A stretch of 64,000 nucleotides of DNA, from positions 15,378 to 79,377 of the forward strand of contig JANNOR010000280.1 in NCBI GenBank assembly GCA_031399265.1, in the 5' to 3' direction. Below the pieces are notes generated by a model, which did not search any database, was not told where the DNA came from, and worked only from the letters and a program-made list of their open reading frames with translations. Positions 4,754 to 44,941 of this stretch are shown here, one piece after another. A program made the translations under genes and the position numbers. Origin of the DNA: Cyanobacteria bacterium SOY_34_metabat_3. Its GTDB lineage: Bacteria > Cyanobacteriota > Cyanobacteriia > Cyanobacteriales > Microcoleaceae. The stretch's first letter is position 1. Each line of letters starts with the position of its first letter.

Positions 4754-4980
4754 GTCAGGAACTCAGGGCTTAAGCCACTGAGCTTGTAAGAAATTACAAG
4801 CTGTTCTGACCAGACCCCTTTCACGAGGAGACGTTATTTAGGTCACGACACCGGCGAATGCGACGCTAGTTTTGGGCTCTGTCATCTGCAATTAAACAGT
4901 TTTAAAGTCACTGAAACAGTGTTGCAGGTCTAACAAGCCTTTATAACCAGGTCGAAGCGAACATTACCCCGAAAGGGAGA
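4754..4980 (+). ncRNA. IscB-type omegaRNA scaffold (HEARO-like)
   Basis: Nested helices: 4833-4842 with 4938-4947, 4886-4891 with 4922-4927, terminal CCC-GAAA-GGG hairpin; 3' boundary approximate. Confidence 0.72.
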
Positions 4981-5122
4981 GCGAGGCAACCATACCTCTT
5001 TCATGAGGGGCAACCATACCCCTCCAACCCCGCAAGGGGATTTAAGGTGGTTGAAACCGCCCGCGTCGTTTCCCACGATCGGGCTAAAGCCACGCTCGTT
5101 TCCCACTTACCGATTGATTTTG
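4754..5122 (+). mobile_element. Non-autonomous IS200/IS605 element carrying an IscB-type omegaRNA (HEARO-like), no iscB ORF
   Basis: Closing stem GGTCAGGAAC 4753-4762 / GTTCTGACC 4803-4811; GCTTGTAA-GAAA-TTACAAGC hairpin; HEARO-like blocks GACCAG, ACGTTATTTAGGTCACGACACC, CTCTGTC, ATTAAACAG, CGAAGCGAACATTACC; GGCTAAAGCC end hairpin; ATGAA immediately 3'. Confidence 0.75.
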
Positions 5123-6004
5123 ATGAAACCACACAGCACTATAGCAACAATCGTAACTTGCCATAACCGCAAGCAAAAGACCTTAGCTAGTCTCGCGGCG
5201 CTATTCAATCAGGTGCTGCCGGCAGATGTCTTGCTGGTGGCGTACTTAGTGGACGATGCCAGCACTGACGGTACTGCCGAAGCTGTGCAGGAGACTTATC
5301 CGCAAGTTAAGTTGCTGCGCGGAGATGGGAATTTGTTTTGGAATGGGGGAATGCGACAAGGATTTGCTGAAGCCATGAAGCAAAATTATGACTGCTACGT
5401 CTGGCTCAACGATGATACTGTACTGGAACCGTTCGCCTTGAGCACAATGCTAGCAACGTCCCGCTGCTTGGCCGAGCAAGGCGAGACGCGAGCTATTGCA
5501 GTGGGTTCTACTCGTGACTCGGAAACTGGGGCGCTGACTTATGGAGGCTGGTTGCGGACTAGCTGGTGGCATCCTTTGCATTTTCGCTTGGTGACACCGA
5601 TCGCAGAAGCTCAGCAGTGCAGTACGATGAACGGTAACTGCGTTTTGATGCCGCGAGCAGTAGTTGAAGTAGTGGGAAACCTAGACCCCGCATTCATCCA
5701 CAGCATGGGAGATATTGACTACGGTTTGCGAGCGGTGCAACAAAATTGTACAGTTTGGGTGGTTCCTGGATACGTGGGCACCTGCTCGACCAACCCGCCG
5801 GAGGGTAACTGCTGGGAAGACCCGAACATGAGTTTGCTCGATCGATTTAAAAAGGTACTGCAACCGAAGGGTTTTGGGCCAAAAGAGTCGAAAGTGCTCG
5901 TACAGCGGCACACAAATATCTTGTGGCCGATATATTGGCTGTTACCTTATTTGAGGTTGATTTTGATCTCGGTTCGCCGAGGATCTGTAGGCTATCGCGG
6001 CTGA
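5123..6004 (+). CDS. GT2 family glycosyltransferase
   Basis: TCHNRK, VDDASTDGT, GNLFWNGGM, WLNDD motifs; start placed at ATG 5123 because the 5003 extension lies in the omegaRNA element. Confidence 0.88.
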   Translation: MKPHSTIATIVTCHNRKQKTLASLAALFNQVLPADVLLVAYLVDDASTDGTAEAVQETYPQVKLLRGDGNLFWNGGMRQGFAEAMKQNYDCYVWLNDDTVLEPFALSTMLATSRCLAEQGETRAIAVGSTRDSETGALTYGGWLRTSWWHPLHFRLVTPIAEAQQCSTMNGNCVLMPRAVVEVVGNLDPAFIHSMGDIDYGLRAVQQNCTVWVVPGYVGTCSTNPPEGNCWEDPNMSLLDRFKKVLQPKGFGPKESKVLVQRHTNILWPIYWLLPYLRLILISVRRGSVGYRG

Positions 6005-22795: not shown

Positions 22796-23719
22796 CTAAT
22801 GACTAATCCCAGTAAATACTCGCTGTGCCGGCCCTGTCATGTAAATCCGTCCAGAAACTTCAGCCCATTCGATTTCTAAAACGCCGCCGGGGAGCTCAAC
22901 CGCAGTTGTCCGATCGCACTTACCGACCAATACCCCAGCCACCACAGCCGCACAAGCACCAGTCCCACAAGCTAGAGTAACACCTGCCCCTCTTTCCCAC
23001 ACTCGCATTTTTACATAGTCCCGTCGTATGACTTGAATAAATTCCGTATTTGTACGCTGCGGGAACGCTTGGTGGTGTTCAAATTGAGGCCCGACAGTTT
23101 CTAAAGCCACAGCCGCAACATCCTCGACAAAAGTAATGCAGTGAGGATTTCCCATGCTGACGCAGGTAACAGACCAAGATTTGCCGTCCGATTCGATCGG
23201 CACATCTACTGCTTTGGCATCCGGTGCGGTTAAAGTTGTCGGAATTTCCGCAGCCAGCAGCCGGGGAATTCCCATATCCACCTTTACCTGAGAGTCCGAT
23301 CGCAATTCTGTGACAATCACCCCCGCACCCGTGTGAATCCGGTACTCAGTCTTAGATGTACTCCCCCCCTTAGCAACCGGGGATTGAATTTCCTGAGATT
23401 TACTCCCCCCCTTAGCAAGGGGGGGCTGGGGGGGGTTCATTTCCGCTGCTTCCAAATCGGCGATAAACTTAGCCAAACAGCGAATCCCGTTGCCGCACAT
23501 TTCCGGTTCCGAACCGTCGGAGTTAAAAATCCGCATCGTATAATCAGTGTCGTTTTGTCCGGGAAGAGCAAAGATGACGCCATCTGCACCAATGCCAAAA
23601 TGTCGATCGCACCATTCCACAGCTTGTTGTGGTGTTAGCACAGGTTCCGACGAGTGGCGGTTGTCAATCAGAATAAAATCATTGCCCAGTCCGTGATACT
23701 TGGTAAACTCGATCGGCAT
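22796..23719 (-). CDS. dapF: Diaminopimelate epimerase with an in-frame repeat-derived insertion
   Basis: [42 protein letters not shown]. Confidence 0.97.
23358..23438. repeat. Two CCCCCCTTAGCAAGGGGGG-type small dispersed repeats inside dapF
   Basis: They encode [10 protein letters not shown] and SPVAKGG in DapF. Confidence 0.8.
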
Positions 23720-23765
23720 AAAAACAAACCTCTTTTAGTTAAAACTGATGAGATGATGTGATGAC

Positions 23766-24083
23766 CAAGAAACTGAGATTCAAGCCCCGTCCTTCTAGTA
23801 CGGCTTTGATTTTCCTATCTTGTTGGCAAAAGCTAGTATAAGATAATAACACCCAAAAGATTTCTAGGCCCAAGACACGTTGAAATAGCTACGATGCGGG
23901 CAAACTTAGAAACGGCTAGAAAGGCAATGGTTAACTCCAACCGTAGGATAGCAGGGTAAAAAGTCGCCACAGGGCATTGGGAGACTTTAAACGGACATGG
24001 AGACAGAGTAAGACTACGCTTGCGTTGCATCAGTCGATGAAGTGTCAAGAATCACCGCACTTTTAGGGCGGTGAGTATGTCAA
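23766..24083 (+). mobile_element. Non-autonomous IS200/IS605 (TnpB family) miniature element retaining an omegaRNA
   Basis: Left end CAAGAAACTGAGATTCAAGCCCCGTCCT..ACGGC and right end GATGAAGTGTCAAGAATCACCGC..GCGGTGAGTATGTCAA match the ends of the tnpB element at 43527-44936; preceded by ATGAC. Confidence 0.88.
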
Positions 24084-24103
24084 CAAATTACCCATTTCTC
24101 AGT
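23959..24103 (+). ncRNA. TnpB omegaRNA scaffold (23959-24083) plus predicted guide (24084-24103)
   Basis: Collinear with 44812-44936 (AAAAGTCG..TAAACGGAC..GATGAAG(T/C)GTCAAGAATCACCGC..TCAA); 5' boundary approximate. Confidence 0.75.
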
Positions 24104-24316
24104 ATGTCTGAATTTGAGACCGGATTGCCCAGTGTTCGCTTAATACAAAGCTACATCAAAGACAAACAACAGATAGAACTAAAACTCGTTACAGGCGATT
24201 TGCTAACAGGCAGAATTTTTTGGCAGGATAATAGCTGTATTTGCCTCCTCGATGCCTCAGAAACACAAATTCTCATTTCGCGATCGGCAATTGCTTATCT
24301 CAAGCCCAACGCTTGA
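24104..24316 (+). CDS. hfq: Cyanobacterial Hfq homolog
   Basis: [32 protein letters not shown]...FWQD...AIAYLKP Sm fold; divergent from dapF; start ATG 24104. Confidence 0.9.
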
Positions 24317-24322
24317 GGAGAA

Positions 24323-24477
24323 GGGGCATGGGGCATGGGGCATGGGGCATGGGGCATGGGGCATGGGGCATGGGGCATGGGTCAAGGGGCATGGGGCATG
24401 GGAATCGGTAGCCAATTCCCAATTCCCAATTCCCAATTCCCAATTCCCAATTCCCAATTCCCAATTCCCAATTCCCT
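24323..24477. repeat. STRR heptamer tracts (GGGGCAT)n and (AATTCCC)n
   Basis: Direct tandem heptamers between the convergent hfq and antiporter genes; similar tracts near 13980, 21450, 48200 and 53490. Confidence 0.95.
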
Positions 24478-43373: not shown

Positions 43374-43526
43374 TCATCAGTCATCAGTCATATCCTAAAA
43401 AACAACTGAAACTATTGCTAATCCCAGGTTTTAATGGAACAGTCCCGGATGTCGAACCTATATATTTAGGATGCGGCGTGCATGGAGGCTTACCGCTATA
43501 ATTCGCGCGTCAAGCAATTTTTTGAC

Positions 43527-44936
43527 CAAAAAGATGGGATTCAAGCCCCGTCCTTTTAGGACGGCTTTTCTTCCTTAAGTTTATCAATCCAGTCCTCTAC
43601 AAGTTGGGTCATCGTTTTCTCTTTCTGTTTGGCAATTCTCCGTAACTTCTCTAGCCGACTCACGGCAATGCGAATACTTAATCTTTCTTTAGTCATTGGG
43701 CTACCCAATTGCTACTCTACTATGTGATCATAGTAAGCATGAAAGCAAGATACCAGTACCGTTTCTATCCAACAAGCCAGCAGCAACAGAGCTTAGCTCA
43801 GTTGTTCGGTTGCGTTCGTGTTGTGTATAACGATGCCCTTGCAATCTGTAAACAATCAGAAAAGAAGCCTAAGTCGGCAGAACTTCAAAAGATTGTTATT
43901 ACTCAGGCAAAAAAAACTGAGGCAAGAGCTTGGCTTAGTGAAGTCTCAAACATACCTTTACAGCAATCTGTAGCGGACTTAGAAACGGCTTTTAAGAACT
44001 TCTTTAACTCCTGCAAAGGAAAGCGGAAGGGTCGCAAAGTTGGGTATCCTAAATTCAAGAAAAGAACAAACAGTCAATCGGCACGATTTAGAATTGGAGG
44101 TTTTTCTCTTAAGAATGGCGGTGTTTATTTAGCCAAGATTGGTATTGTCAACCCAATATGGTCGAGAAGCCTCCCGTCCGAGCCTAGCTCTGTCACAGTA
44201 ATTAAAGATTGTGCAAACCGCTATTTTTTGAGTTTTGTTGTAGAAGTTCAACCAATTCAGATTGAGACAAAAAATCCGAGTATCGGAATCGATTTAGGGA
44301 TTAAAACCTTTGCAGTAATGAGTAATGGTGAGAAAGCTGAAAGCCCTAGCTACAAAAAGTTAGACCAGAAAGTTCGCAAGCTACAACGCAAATTAGCTCG
44401 CCAACCCAAAGATTCCAAGAGAAGGAATATAACTTGCATTAGAATCGCCAAGCTGCACAATCGAATTGCGGATACCCGTAAAGACTTCCTGCACAAATTG
44501 TCAACCAAAATAGTCAACGAAAACCAAGTGATTGTTTTGGAAGATTTGAATGTATCAGGGATGGTCAAGAATCGAAAACTTGCTAGGGCGATTAGTCAGC
44601 AAGGATGGAGAGAATTCAGGACTCTCTGTGAAGCTAAATCCGAAAAGTTTGGTAGAGAGTTCAAAGTAATTAGTCGATGGGAACCTACTAGCCAAGTGTG
44701 TGCGGATTGTGGGTTTAAGTGGGGTAAAATTGATTTATCTATTCGTTCAGTGCTTTGTTTAAATTGCGGTACTGAACAAGACAGAGACGAAAATGCTGCT
44801 AGGAATATAGAAAAAGTCGGGATGGGGAATCGCCACGACTCTAAACGGACGCAGAGGGATTGTCAGACTATTTCGGTAGCAGAACCCGATGAAGCGTCAA
44901 GAATCACCGCTCATAAGAGGACGGTGAGTATTTCAA
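43527..44936 (+). mobile_element. IS200/IS605 family element (tnpB, no tnpA) with a small divergent RHH gene
   Basis: TTGAC at 43522-43526, then left end CAAAAAGATGGGATTCAAGCCCCGTCCTTTTAGGACGG; right end hairpin TCACCGC..CGGTGA ending TTTCAA; no target-site duplication. Confidence 0.9.
43556..43696 (-). CDS. 46-aa ribbon-helix-helix (CopG-like) protein, below the ORF-track cutoff
   Basis: Manual translation MTKERLSIRIAVSRLEKLRRIAKQKEKTMTQLVEDWIDKLKEEKPS; alternating beta strand followed by two helices. Confidence 0.72.
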   Translation of the reverse strand: MTKERLSIRIAVSRLEKLRRIAKQKEKTMTQLVEDWIDKLKEEKPS

Positions 44937-44941
44937 CTTAG
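43739..44941 (+). CDS. tnpB: RNA-guided endonuclease TnpB
   Basis: YRFYPT HTH, GIDLG (RuvC-I D), LEDLNV (RuvC-II E), CADCG/CLNCG zinc finger, DRDENAARNI (RuvC-III D). Confidence 0.96.
   Translation: MKARYQYRFYPTSQQQQSLAQLFGCVRVVYNDALAICKQSEKKPKSAELQKIVITQAKKTEARAWLSEVSNIPLQQSVADLETAFKNFFNSCKGKRKGRKVGYPKFKKRTNSQSARFRIGGFSLKNGGVYLAKIGIVNPIWSRSLPSEPSSVTVIKDCANRYFLSFVVEVQPIQIETKNPSIGIDLGIKTFAVMSNGEKAESPSYKKLDQKVRKLQRKLARQPKDSKRRNITCIRIAKLHNRIADTRKDFLHKLSTKIVNENQVIVLEDLNVSGMVKNRKLARAISQQGWREFRTLCEAKSEKFGREFKVISRWEPTSQVCADCGFKWGKIDLSIRSVLCLNCGTEQDRDENAARNIEKVGMGNRHDSKRTQRDCQTISVAEPDEASRITAHKRTVSIST

What the first reader, a model, noticed from the sequence alone, without database searches (positions are those of the whole stretch)
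23761..24106. Miniature TnpB omegaRNA element whose predicted guide is the hfq 5' UTR
Seen: a 318-bp element between divergent dapF and hfq shares its left end and its ~125-nt right end with the full tnpB element at 43527-44936. It is preceded by ATGAC (TTGAC for the full copy) and ends in TCAA. The next 20 nt (CAAATTACCCATTTCTCAGT) end exactly at the hfq ATG. Established: TnpB guides derive from the flank 3' of the right end. Inference: it encodes a trans-acting omegaRNA against element-free hfq alleles (other chromosome copies or incoming DNA). The hfq mRNA probably carries the omegaRNA as its leader, so TnpB binding or processing could change Hfq output.
Basis: partly seen in the sequence, partly recalled or inferred. 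Interest (0 to 1): 0.8.

Follow-up and report, generated by a model that had tools for sequence, protein, structure and literature searches.

The report
Guide-RNA mini-transposon inserted before hfq
A 318-bp protein-less offshoot of an IS605-type transposon sits 20 bases upstream of the hfq gene in a Microcoleus-like cyanobacterium; it keeps the transposon's guide-RNA gene, so its guide is the hfq leader, but this kind of element is already known and the hfq position looks incidental.

Summary
Window 23766-24083 is a 318-bp element with the left-end hairpin and the ~125-nt right end of the tnpB element at 43527-44936. It is flanked by ATGAC and ends in TCAA. The next 20 nt run exactly to the hfq ATG at 24104.

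Relatives carry the predicted 66-bp empty allele (…GATGAC|CAAATTACCC…), and one metagenome holds both occupied and exactly empty alleles.

The element belongs to a large cyanobacterial IS200/IS605 family with three forms: tnpA+tnpB copies, tnpB-only copies and many 178-325-bp minis. The target/TAM is TGAC. The right end folds into a strongly covarying ~125-nt structure, and the mini keeps 23 of its 25 pairs. Most minis have a consensus extended -10 box just upstream of it. The TnpB 20 kb away is ISDra2-like with an intact active site.

The best reading is therefore a non-autonomous, omegaRNA-bearing PATE served in trans by TnpB. Meers et al. 2023 already described this kind of element.

That the guide equals the hfq leader follows automatically from the insertion site. 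A regulatory link to Hfq is possible but untested, and minis show no orientation bias toward neighbouring genes.

Verdict: a new member of a known kind, of moderate interest.

The parts
22796..23719 (-). dapF (diaminopimelate epimerase), the divergent left neighbour
   Evidence: ORF; Pfam DAP_epimerase E 4e-68; orthologues in 80 cyanobacterial genomes
23749..23757 (+). TGAGATGAT, an extended -10-like box of the pre-insertion hfq promoter (inferred); the predicted start site falls at about 23764, the insertion point
   Evidence: Read from the sequence. A GAT(A/G)AT hexamer sits at the same distance from TGAC|CAAATT in L013, L017, L019 and the M. vaginatus group. Inference only
23762..23765 (+). 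TGAC target / transposon-adjacent motif (TAM), preceded by A at 23761
   Evidence: TGAC is invariant in 38 unique insertion sites of this subfamily; the base before it is T17/C13/A5/G3
23766..24083 (+). 318-bp non-autonomous IS200/IS605-family mini-element (PATE/MITE)
   Evidence: exact 318-bp presence/absence; no tnpB similarity inside it
23781..23807 (+). Left-end subterminal imperfect hairpin (AAGCCCCGTCC...ACGGCTT)
   Evidence: 87% identical to 43542-43568; folds at -13.1 kcal/mol, z = -2.6; conserved in 65 family copies
23820..23849 (+). Degenerate promoter-like segment: AGCTAGTAT at 23831-23839 and GATAAT at 23842-47, in the position of the family's TGnTAnAAT box
   Evidence: Alignment with the other ~300-bp minis. 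21 of 30 unique minis have TGnTAnnnT right after the left-end hairpin; this copy does not match exactly. The consensus promoter scan did not call it
23860..23945 (+). Middle module shared only with other ~300-bp minis (GCYCAAGACACGTTGAAAYAGC...); function unknown
   Evidence: blastn to L148 (83.5% over 85 nt) and L099/L106 (76.6% over 77 nt); alignment
23944..23949 (+). TAGGAT, a second -10-like hexamer about 8 nt before the scaffold; it is homologous to the tnpB 'AARNI' codons of full copies
   Evidence: Comparison of the sequences upstream of the scaffold; inference
23958..24083 (+). omegaRNA scaffold / transposon right end
   Evidence: 83 unique family copies: 25 consensus pairs, 15 with compensatory changes, 95.7% of cells paired against 29-43% when partners are slid. 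This copy keeps 23 of 25 pairs
24052..24074 (+). Right-end terminal hairpin TCACCGC...GCGGTGA, followed by GTATGTCAA
24084..24103 (+). Predicted guide (first 16-20 nt of flank), which is the whole sequence between the element and the hfq ATG; this 20-mer is conserved across Microcoleus relatives
   Evidence: conserved in L001-L033; unique in the window at up to 3 mismatches
24104..24316 (+). hfq (70 aa, cyanobacterial type)
   Evidence: Pfam Hfq_1 E 1.4e-30; tblastn alignments in relatives start at residue 1
43527..44936 (+). Full tnpB-only family member (1410 bp), preceded by TTGAC at 43522-43526; candidate source of TnpB in trans
43739..44941 (+). tnpB (400 aa), ISDra2-like; RuvC D/E/D and zinc-finger cysteines conserved; the stop codon lies 3-5 nt beyond the right end
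   Evidence: Pfam OrfB_IS605, Cas12f1-like_TNB and HTH_OrfB_IS605. PDB 8bf8/8exa ISDra2 TnpB, E 2.4e-64 over residues 5-360, with GIDLG, LEDLN and DRDENAARNI aligned to the catalytic motifs
43556..43696 (-). Small 46-aa ORF (ribbon-helix-helix-like) occupying the place of tnpA in tnpB-only family members
   Evidence: weak DUF6364/CopG hits. Positional counterparts in L179 and L191 hit RHH_1 above its cut-off

Best explanation
Window 23766-24083 is a non-autonomous, protein-less derivative (PATE/MITE) of an IS200/IS605-family insertion sequence.

Shown:
- It keeps the left-end hairpin needed for TnpA-mediated single-strand 'peel-and-paste' transposition.
- It keeps the ~125-nt right end, which is also the gene for the TnpB guide RNA (omegaRNA) scaffold.
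- It inserted 3' of a TGAC motif in the dapF-hfq spacer, 20 nt before the hfq start codon, without a target duplication.
- It belongs to a large family that includes autonomous tnpA+tnpB copies.
- The right-end structure is under selection for base pairing in minis as well as in full copies.
- Empty and occupied alleles co-exist in nature.

Inferred:
- Transcription starts inside the element, or reads through from the old hfq promoter at its left edge. It would yield an RNA made of the scaffold followed by the hfq leader.
- TnpB made by full copies, such as the one at 43739-44941, would bind this RNA.
- TnpB would use the first ~16-20 flank nucleotides (CAAATTACCCATTTCT...) as a guide to cut any chromosome copy or incoming DNA carrying the element-free allele TGAC|CAAATTACCC.
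- Repair from an occupied copy would then restore or spread the element. This is transposon 'homing' or retention as shown for IS605 elements by Meers et al. 2023.
- The occupied allele is immune because the guide match is preceded there by GTCAA, not TGAC.

Side effect: hfq now lies directly downstream of the scaffold with no terminator between them, so at least part of the hfq mRNA probably carries the scaffold as its leader. I regard this as incidental rather than an evolved regulatory device.
For: Anatomy and boundaries.

Empty allele: a 66-bp form with the exact junction is present in L017 and L005. In run X9 an exact 318-bp skip sits beside an occupied contig.

Family: more than 120 metagenomic loci carry this right end, giving 35 minis and 30 longer copies with both ends. 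Members of 1.68-1.73 kb carry a Y1_Tnp transposase, E 1.5e-36. TGAC is invariant at 38 unique sites, 5 of them ATGAC.

RNA structure: there are 25 consensus pairs, 15 with compensatory changes. 95.7% of cells are paired against 29-43% in slid controls, and the covariation score is 0.48 against about 0.05. G-U pairs are tolerated on this strand. The window mini keeps 23 of 25 pairs.

Selection in minis independent of coding: the stem-1 variant GCC...GGGA is a compensated swap of GGG...CCAC. It occurs in 25 minis and in 0 of 51 tnpB-linked copies.

Promoter: 21 of 30 unique minis have TGnTAnnnT at a fixed place between the left-end hairpin and the scaffold.

TnpB: ISDra2-like with the catalytic D/E/D and zinc finger intact.

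RNA libraries: family right-end sequences, and a 313-nt contig of a sibling ~300-bp mini running 36 nt into its own flank, occur in metatranscriptomes.

Recent spread: a contig in X11 differs from the window by about 10% in dapF (22961-23599) but by at most 1% in the element.

Against: - No RNA data exist for this strain or locus.
- This copy lacks an exact match to the family's extended -10 box, and the consensus scan found no promoter in it.
- It has two broken scaffold pairs.
- Its scaffold is only about 78% identical to that of the neighbouring tnpB copy and is of the mini-only stem type, so cross-recognition by that TnpB is unproven.
- Whether TnpB accepts A at the position before TGAC is unknown. 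Insertion-site statistics report on TnpA, not on TnpB.
- No tnpA was looked for or found in the 64-kb window.
- Metatranscriptome contigs can contain DNA carry-over.
Confidence: 0.7

Rival explanations
1. Inert relic. The mini-element is a decaying, no longer expressed or TnpB-competent remnant. It matters only as 318 bp of spacer DNA that moved the hfq promoter.
For: This copy lacks the consensus TGnTAnAAT box and carries an extra 36-nt insertion relative to sibling minis. It has two mismatched scaffold pairs. One left-end hairpin pair is weakened compared with the full copy. No transcript evidence exists.
Against: 23 of 25 scaffold pairs are intact, which is within the family norm: 31 copies have 0, 28 have 1 and 13 have 2 broken pairs. 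The element is at most 1% diverged between lineages whose flanking dapF differs by about 10%, so it arrived or spread recently. Near-identical copies of the same ~300-bp type occur elsewhere, including in an RNA library.
Confidence: 0.2
2. Exapted hfq regulator. The element has been co-opted so that its promoter and scaffold form the hfq leader. TnpB binding or processing of that leader, or guide sequestration, would then tune Hfq synthesis.
For: Only 20 nt and no terminator separate the scaffold from the ATG. The old promoter-like box sits immediately left of the insertion. In a relative's metatranscriptome the hfq transcript extends at least 21 nt upstream of the junction, so the leader is normally longer than the 20-mer. 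The occupied allele is kept in several strains.
Against: The element is absent from this site in all 80 related species representatives. Those fill the same spot with heptamer arrays, an unrelated tnpB insertion sequence or a 246-nt insert. Occupied and empty alleles co-occur. Minis show no orientation bias toward downstream genes, 9 against 9. TnpB is nuclease-intact, unlike domesticated TldR regulators. No expression data exist.
Confidence: 0.08
3. The conserved right-end structure serves DNA transposition only, as single-stranded DNA recognised by TnpA. On this view it is not a guide RNA, and the mini is an ordinary MITE with no RNA product.
For: IS200/IS605 ends do function as folded single-stranded DNA. 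The terminal hairpin and the TCAA cleavage site are the most conserved parts, although that is partly because the search pattern selected for them.
Against: Four further helices, spanning about 85 nt upstream of the terminal hairpin, covary strongly. In the closest solved relative, ISDra2 TnpB, this region is the omegaRNA scaffold; that rests on my own knowledge of the ISDra2 structures. Most minis place a consensus extended -10 promoter about 8 nt upstream of the first helix, pointing into it. Frequent G-U pairs fit an RNA of this strand. Family right-end sequences are present in RNA libraries.
Confidence: 0.05

Closest known systems
[quoted passage not shown] 2023, bioRxiv 10.1101/2023.03.14.532601; the term is from Dyall-Smith et al. 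2011, PMC3119063)
   Same: A protein-less element bounded by the left-end and right-end hairpins of a tnpB/tnpA insertion-sequence family. It retains the omegaRNA-encoding right end and would need TnpA and TnpB supplied in trans.
   Different: The host is a cyanobacterium and the sequence family is different, with TAM TGAC. Here the minis outnumber or equal the full copies in the sample. Most carry a consensus extended -10 box fused to the scaffold, and many carry a mini-specific compensated stem variant. I did not find these last two features described in the papers I read.
ISDra2 (Deinococcus radiodurans) TnpB-omegaRNA (reRNA) system; PDB 8bf8, 8exa, 8h1j
   Same: TnpB is homologous over its full length (E 2.4e-64) with conserved RuvC D/E/D and zinc finger. 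The scaffold lies at the tnpB 3' end and right end, and the guide comes from the 3' flank. The TAM is a 4-5-nt motif 5' of the left end (TTGAT in ISDra2; from knowledge).
   Different: The TAM here is TGAC (TTGAC/ATGAC). The element of interest has no tnpB. The scaffold sequence is unrelated at the nucleotide level, and no Rfam family matches it.
IS608 (Helicobacter pylori), the IS200/IS605 paradigm
   Same: Inserts 3' of a tetranucleotide (TTAC in IS608). The right end finishes in TCAA. It has subterminal hairpins, makes no target duplication and uses a Y1 TnpA (from knowledge). All of these features are seen in this family.
   Different: The target is TGAC. One subfamily in the sample uses TTAT, three copies use TCAC and one uses TTAC.
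TldR (TnpB-like nuclease-dead repressors) with adjacent guide RNAs (Wiegand et al., 10.1101/2023.11.30.569447)
   Same: A TnpB-type guide RNA whose guide matches a promoter or leader region of a host gene.
   Different: TldRs are nuclease-dead, immobile and have conserved targets. Here TnpB is intact, the element is mobile and polymorphic, and the guide match is a by-product of insertion. In the occupied allele the match lacks a TAM.

Membership tests
IS200/IS605-family non-autonomous element (PATE/MITE) | Subterminal imperfect hairpins at the left and right ends instead of terminal inverted repeats | tested here: met
   Left-end hairpin 23781-23807 and right-end hairpin 24052-24074, shared with the full copy and 65 other copies
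IS200/IS605-family non-autonomous element (PATE/MITE) | Insertion immediately 3' of a short conserved motif, with no target-site duplication | tested here: met
   TGAC is invariant at 38 unique sites. The empty allele ...GATGAC|CAAATT... equals the two flanks joined with nothing duplicated
IS200/IS605-family non-autonomous element (PATE/MITE) | Same ends as autonomous relatives that encode a Y1 (HUH) TnpA transposase | tested here: met
   Copies of 1.68-1.73 kb with the same left and right ends encode a 132-aa Y1_Tnp protein, E 1.5e-36. No tnpA was sought elsewhere in this genome
IS200/IS605-family non-autonomous element (PATE/MITE) | No transposase or nuclease gene inside the element | tested here: met
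   318 bp; no tblastn match to TnpB; only short unsupported ORFs on the opposite strand
IS200/IS605-family non-autonomous element (PATE/MITE) | Evidence of mobility (presence/absence polymorphism at exact boundaries) | tested here: met
   Exact 318-bp skip in an X9 contig next to an occupied contig; 66-bp empty alleles in L005 and L017
TnpB omegaRNA (OMEGA) guide-RNA gene | Conserved structured scaffold at the right end, co-linear with the tnpB 3' end | tested here: met
   25 pairs, 15 compensatory, 95.7% paired against 29-43% in slid controls; the mini keeps 23 of 25
TnpB omegaRNA (OMEGA) guide-RNA gene | Cognate TnpB with intact RuvC and zinc finger in the same genome | tested here: met
   tnpB 43739-44941; D/E/D and CxxC motifs align with ISDra2 TnpB. 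Compatibility with the mini-type scaffold was not tested
TnpB omegaRNA (OMEGA) guide-RNA gene | Guide plus TAM match the element-free allele and not the occupied one | tested here: met
   L017 reads ATGAC|CAAATTACCCTTTTCT, with 1 mismatch at guide position 11. In the window the guide match is preceded by GTCAA. No other match occurs in the window
TnpB omegaRNA (OMEGA) guide-RNA gene | The RNA is transcribed | tested here: inconclusive
   There are no RNA runs for this strain. Family right-end sequences and a sibling mini appear in metatranscriptome contigs, but DNA carry-over cannot be excluded. This copy lacks the exact promoter box of the family
TnpB omegaRNA (OMEGA) guide-RNA gene | Forms an RNP with TnpB and directs TAM-dependent DNA cleavage | not testable with these tools
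   Needs RIP-seq and interference or cleavage assays
TldR-like domesticated RNA-guided repressor | Nuclease-inactivated TnpB homologue | tested here: not met
   The catalytic D, E and D are all present
TldR-like domesticated RNA-guided repressor | Guide RNA and target conserved at a fixed host locus across related species | tested here: not met
   None of the 80 dapF-hfq loci from related species carries the element

The most novel reading that the evidence does not exclude
The omegaRNA scaffold is the functional 5' leader of the hfq mRNA in this lineage. TnpB binds the scaffold, buries the 20-nt leader as its guide, and its 3' trimming would fall at the start codon. If so, guide-RNA maturation and Hfq translation compete on the same transcript. 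That would make a transposon nuclease a post-transcriptional governor of a global RNA chaperone, which in cyanobacteria is tied to pili and natural competence. A weaker variant is that mini-elements form a self-propagating lineage of promoter-plus-guide cassettes that parasitise TnpB and home between diverged Microcoleus lineages.
Probability: 0.1. Interest if true: 0.7.

Novelty: new member of a known kind. Interest (0 to 1): 0.4.

Why it matters
This is a clean natural example of an omegaRNA-only mini-transposon, with three things rarely available together:
- the exact empty allele in relatives;
- occupied and empty alleles in one community;
- a near-identical element embedded in flanks that differ by about 10%.

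That pattern is what TnpB-driven homing, or transfer of the occupied allele by recombination, predicts in the wild.

At the family level, minis keep base pairing through a compensated stem swap seen only in non-coding copies, and most carry a consensus extended -10 box fused to the scaffold. This argues that guide-RNA expression itself is selected in protein-less elements.

The hfq location offers a convenient test of whether such insertions rewire a neighbouring gene. Nothing here shows that they do.

Tried and rejected
- Exact-protein look-ups of Hfq (70-aa and 81-aa forms) found no record.
- Rfam gave nothing for the element at gathering or at permissive thresholds; the only hits were chance-level snoRNA and S15 matches.
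- The consensus promoter/terminator scan found nothing in the element.
- The right-end pattern occurs in none of the 80 dapF-hfq loci of relatives, so no second species carries it at this site.
- The guide has no second match in the window at up to 3 mismatches.
- A rough ORF-based test of orientation bias of minis relative to the next gene was negative, 9 against 9.
- The 35-nt similarity of 23904-23938 to tnpB codons 43977-44011 (74%) was not supported as a tnpB remnant: the middle module matches only other ~300-bp minis.
- The single-sequence fold of the mini RNA is not unusually stable (z = -1.0 for 293 nt, -1.8 for scaffold plus guide). The case for structure therefore rests on covariation, not on energy.
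- A recent review of OMEGA systems contained nothing on omegaRNA-only elements.

Full report
**1. The observation**

The sequence is as described. dapF (22796-23719, minus strand) and hfq (24104-24316, plus strand) are divergent neighbours. Pfam confirms both: DAP_epimerase at E 4e-68 and Hfq_1 at E 1.4e-30.

Between them lie 384 bp, made up of three parts:
- a 46-bp left flank ending in ATGAC;
- a 318-bp element (23766-24083) ending in TCAA;
- 20 bp (CAAATTACCCATTTCTCAGT) that abut the hfq ATG.

The element's first ~45 nt match the left end of the tnpB element at 43527-44936 (46 nt at 87%, counting the shared TGAC). Its last ~125 nt align with that element's right end. Exact or near-exact end patterns occur only at these two places in the window, with none expected in shuffles.

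Because CAA follows both junctions, the boundary is formally ambiguous by up to 3 nt. Other family copies diverge immediately after TCAA.

**2. Organism and the empty site**

dapF orthologues place the window in the Microcoleus/Tychonema group of Oscillatoriales; the best match is 91% amino-acid identity. dapF-hfq divergent synteny is conserved across filamentous cyanobacteria.

- L017 has AAAAACAAACCTCTTTTAGTTAAAACTGATGGGATGATGTGATGAC|CAAATTACCCTTTTCTCAGT.
- Tychonema BBK16 (L005) also has 66 bp.

In metagenome run X9, a contig that skips exactly 318 bases (depth 19.7) co-occurs with a contig carrying the element (depth 21). In X3 the exact window sequence is present at about 800x.

The same spot is a general hot spot in relatives:
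- TAATGAC heptamer arrays that end in TGAC exactly at the junction;
- an unrelated full tnpB insertion sequence (L001);
- a mini version of that element (L006);
- in the M. vaginatus group, a 246-nt insert between the conserved 20-mer and the ATG.

**3. The family**

An exact-pattern scan of public metagenomes with the right-end hairpin returned more than 120 loci. Among copies with both ends I found 35 minis and 30 longer copies. Most minis are about 178 bp; some are 200-325 bp.

The 1.68-1.73-kb copies encode a divergent 132-aa Y1 transposase (Pfam Y1_Tnp, E 1.5e-36). The 1.3-1.4-kb copies, like the one in the window, lack it. Many of them instead carry a 46-63-aa ribbon-helix-helix ORF in its place.

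The motif 5' of the left end is TGAC in 38 unique insertions, with T/C/A/G = 17/13/5/3 at the preceding base. Five of these are ATGAC. A sister subfamily uses TTAT. There is no target duplication.

These are the defining properties of IS200/IS605 elements, and the minis fit the definition of PATEs.

**4. The right end as an RNA gene**

I aligned 83 unique right ends of 128 nt each.
- RNAalifold predicts 25 pairs in six helices, and 15 of the pairs show compensatory double changes.
- On the named structure, 95.7% of cells are paired, against 29-43% when partners are slid by 1-3 columns.
- The covariation score is 0.48 against about 0.05, and no shuffle out of 500 reaches the observed values.
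- The terminal hairpin is invariant by construction, because it was the search pattern. The signal therefore comes from the four upstream helices.
- G-U pairs are common on this strand.
- The window mini keeps 23 of 25 pairs, within the family norm.

Two further observations argue that the RNA itself is selected in protein-less copies.
- Stem 1 exists as GGG...CCAC in all 48 classifiable tnpB-linked copies and in 7 minis; in tnpB-linked copies it also encodes the TnpB tail. The compensated swap GCC...GGGA occurs in 25 minis and in no tnpB-linked copy.
- 21 of 30 unique minis have TGnTAnnnT, typically TGTTAAAAT or TGCTAGAAT, and 24 of 30 have TAnAAT. In most the box sits at a fixed position directly after the left-end hairpin; in the ~178-bp minis that is about 8 nt before the first scaffold helix.

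The short minis are thus hairpin, promoter and scaffold and nothing else.

**5. This copy in particular**

The window mini belongs to a rarer ~300-bp class (L083, L099, L148, L196). This class shares an additional ~85-nt middle module of unknown role.

It also has a private 36-nt insertion, and it does not match the consensus promoter box exactly. It has AGCTAGTAT and GATAAT at 23831-23847 and TAGGAT at 23944-23949. The simple promoter scan calls nothing there.

A TGAGATGAT box at 23749-23757, conserved in position in several empty-allele relatives, would start transcription at about the insertion point. This is inference.

No terminator separates the scaffold from hfq.

**6. TnpB**

The 400-aa TnpB at 43739-44941 aligns end to end with ISDra2 TnpB (PDB 8bf8/8exa, E 2.4e-64). 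The RuvC D, E and D (GIDLG, LEDLN, DRDENAARNI) and the zinc-finger cysteines are conserved. It is therefore a credible active nuclease in the same replicon.

Its own scaffold is about 78% identical to the mini's and is of the other stem-1 type. Cross-recognition is therefore plausible but untested.

**7. RNA evidence**

No RNA-seq exists for this strain. Environmental metatranscriptomes give some indirect evidence:
- They contain family right-end sequences, at contig depth up to about 1300 in X33.
- A 313-nt contig of a sibling ~300-bp mini runs 36 nt into its own flank.
- An hfq transcript of a relative begins at least 21 nt upstream of the junction, inside its heptamer array.

The last point implies that hfq leaders normally extend beyond the conserved 20-mer. 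All of these are assembled contigs, and DNA carry-over cannot be excluded.

**8. Population signal**

A 1112-nt contig in X11 (also present in X9) spans 22961-24073 with 80 differences. They are distributed as follows:
- about 66 in 22961-23599 (10%);
- about 12 in 23600-23765 (7%);
- at most 3 in the 308 nt of element covered (at most 1%).

In X2, a contig has 17 differences, all within 23603-23702, and none in the element.

The element is therefore much younger than the divergence of its surroundings. The simplest readings are transfer of the occupied allele by homologous recombination, which is the outcome predicted by TnpB homing, or repeated insertion of the same rare variant into a hot spot. 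The contig data cannot separate these.

**9. Interpretation**

The element is an omegaRNA-bearing PATE. Its guide equals the hfq leader because guides are by definition the 3' flank.

Guide plus TGAC matches the empty allele. The occupied allele is protected because GTCAA precedes the match there.

This is the mechanism demonstrated for IS605 elements. The trans-acting PATE case is explicitly anticipated by Meers et al. 2023.

An evolved link to Hfq is not supported:
- The element is absent from this site in 80 related species.
- It is polymorphic.
- Minis show no orientation bias.
- TnpB is not nuclease-dead.

A physical consequence for hfq expression remains likely enough to be worth testing.

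**10. Verdict**

This is a new member of a known kind. Interest is moderate, and it rests on the family-level and population-level features rather than on the hfq coincidence.

Noticed in passing
window 4754-4967 (+): A full-length HEARO RNA (Rfam RF02033, 130 bits, E 1e-26), the IscB-type omegaRNA. No iscB ORF follows it; the next ORF (5003-6004) was not checked. This is a second guide-RNA-only element of a different OMEGA class in the same window.
   Followed up: partly
window 43556-43696 (-); L179, L191, L174, L100 left ends: tnpB-only family members carry a 46-63-aa ribbon-helix-helix ORF (RHH_1 or NikA-like hits for L179 and L191) on the opposite strand, exactly where autonomous members carry tnpA. 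The ORF ends inside the left-end hairpin (...KKPS). Its role is unknown; it may be a regulator.
   Followed up: partly
window 23351-23424 (inside dapF): Two copies of a ~42-nt repeat containing CCCCCCCTTAGCAA(C/G)GGGGG lie in frame within dapF, adding roughly 30 residues relative to many orthologues (924 against 828 nt). Metagenome word depth at 23402-23435 is 25-50 times the flanks, so this is a very high-copy short palindromic repeat tolerated inside a coding region.
   Followed up: no
window 24320-24475; homologous spacer in L003, L007-L012, L024 and others: Heptanucleotide arrays (GGGGCAT)n and (CCCAATT)n fill the hfq 3' spacer. In relatives, (TAATGAC)n arrays fill the dapF-hfq spacer and each unit contains the TGAC target of this insertion-sequence family, ending exactly at the insertion point.
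   Followed up: partly
L001:2568-4000 and L006 (dapF-hfq spacer of two relatives): An unrelated full tnpB insertion sequence (1.37 kb, co-oriented with hfq) and, in another genome, a mini derivative of it occupy the same spacer at a different junction (GGTTAA|CTAGAC...). The M. vaginatus clade has a 246-nt insert between the conserved 20-mer and the hfq ATG.
   Followed up: partly
window 44937-44941: The tnpB reading frame runs through the whole omegaRNA scaffold and stops 3-5 nt beyond the transposon end. The last TnpB residue (Thr) and the stop codon are therefore supplied by the insertion-site flank, and the ~40-residue tail is the translated scaffold.
   Followed up: no
L099:3655-5352 and L106: Tandem arrangement: a ~300-bp mini begins directly after the TCAA of a full tnpB copy, with no TGAC/TTAT motif between them. 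The full copy's guide is therefore the mini's left end.
   Followed up: no
window 23951-23956 with 24089-24094: In the minimum-energy fold of the mini transcript, GGGUAA just upstream of the scaffold pairs with UUACCC inside the predicted guide / hfq leader. This is 6 bp and may be chance. The segment differs from sibling ~300-bp minis.
   Followed up: no
window 23603-23702 (runs X2, X5): In a strain otherwise identical to the window (0 differences in 22800-23376 and 24054-24310), a 100-nt patch at the dapF 5' end, next to the element's left flank, carries 17 substitutions. This looks like a recombination import adjoining the element.
   Followed up: partly
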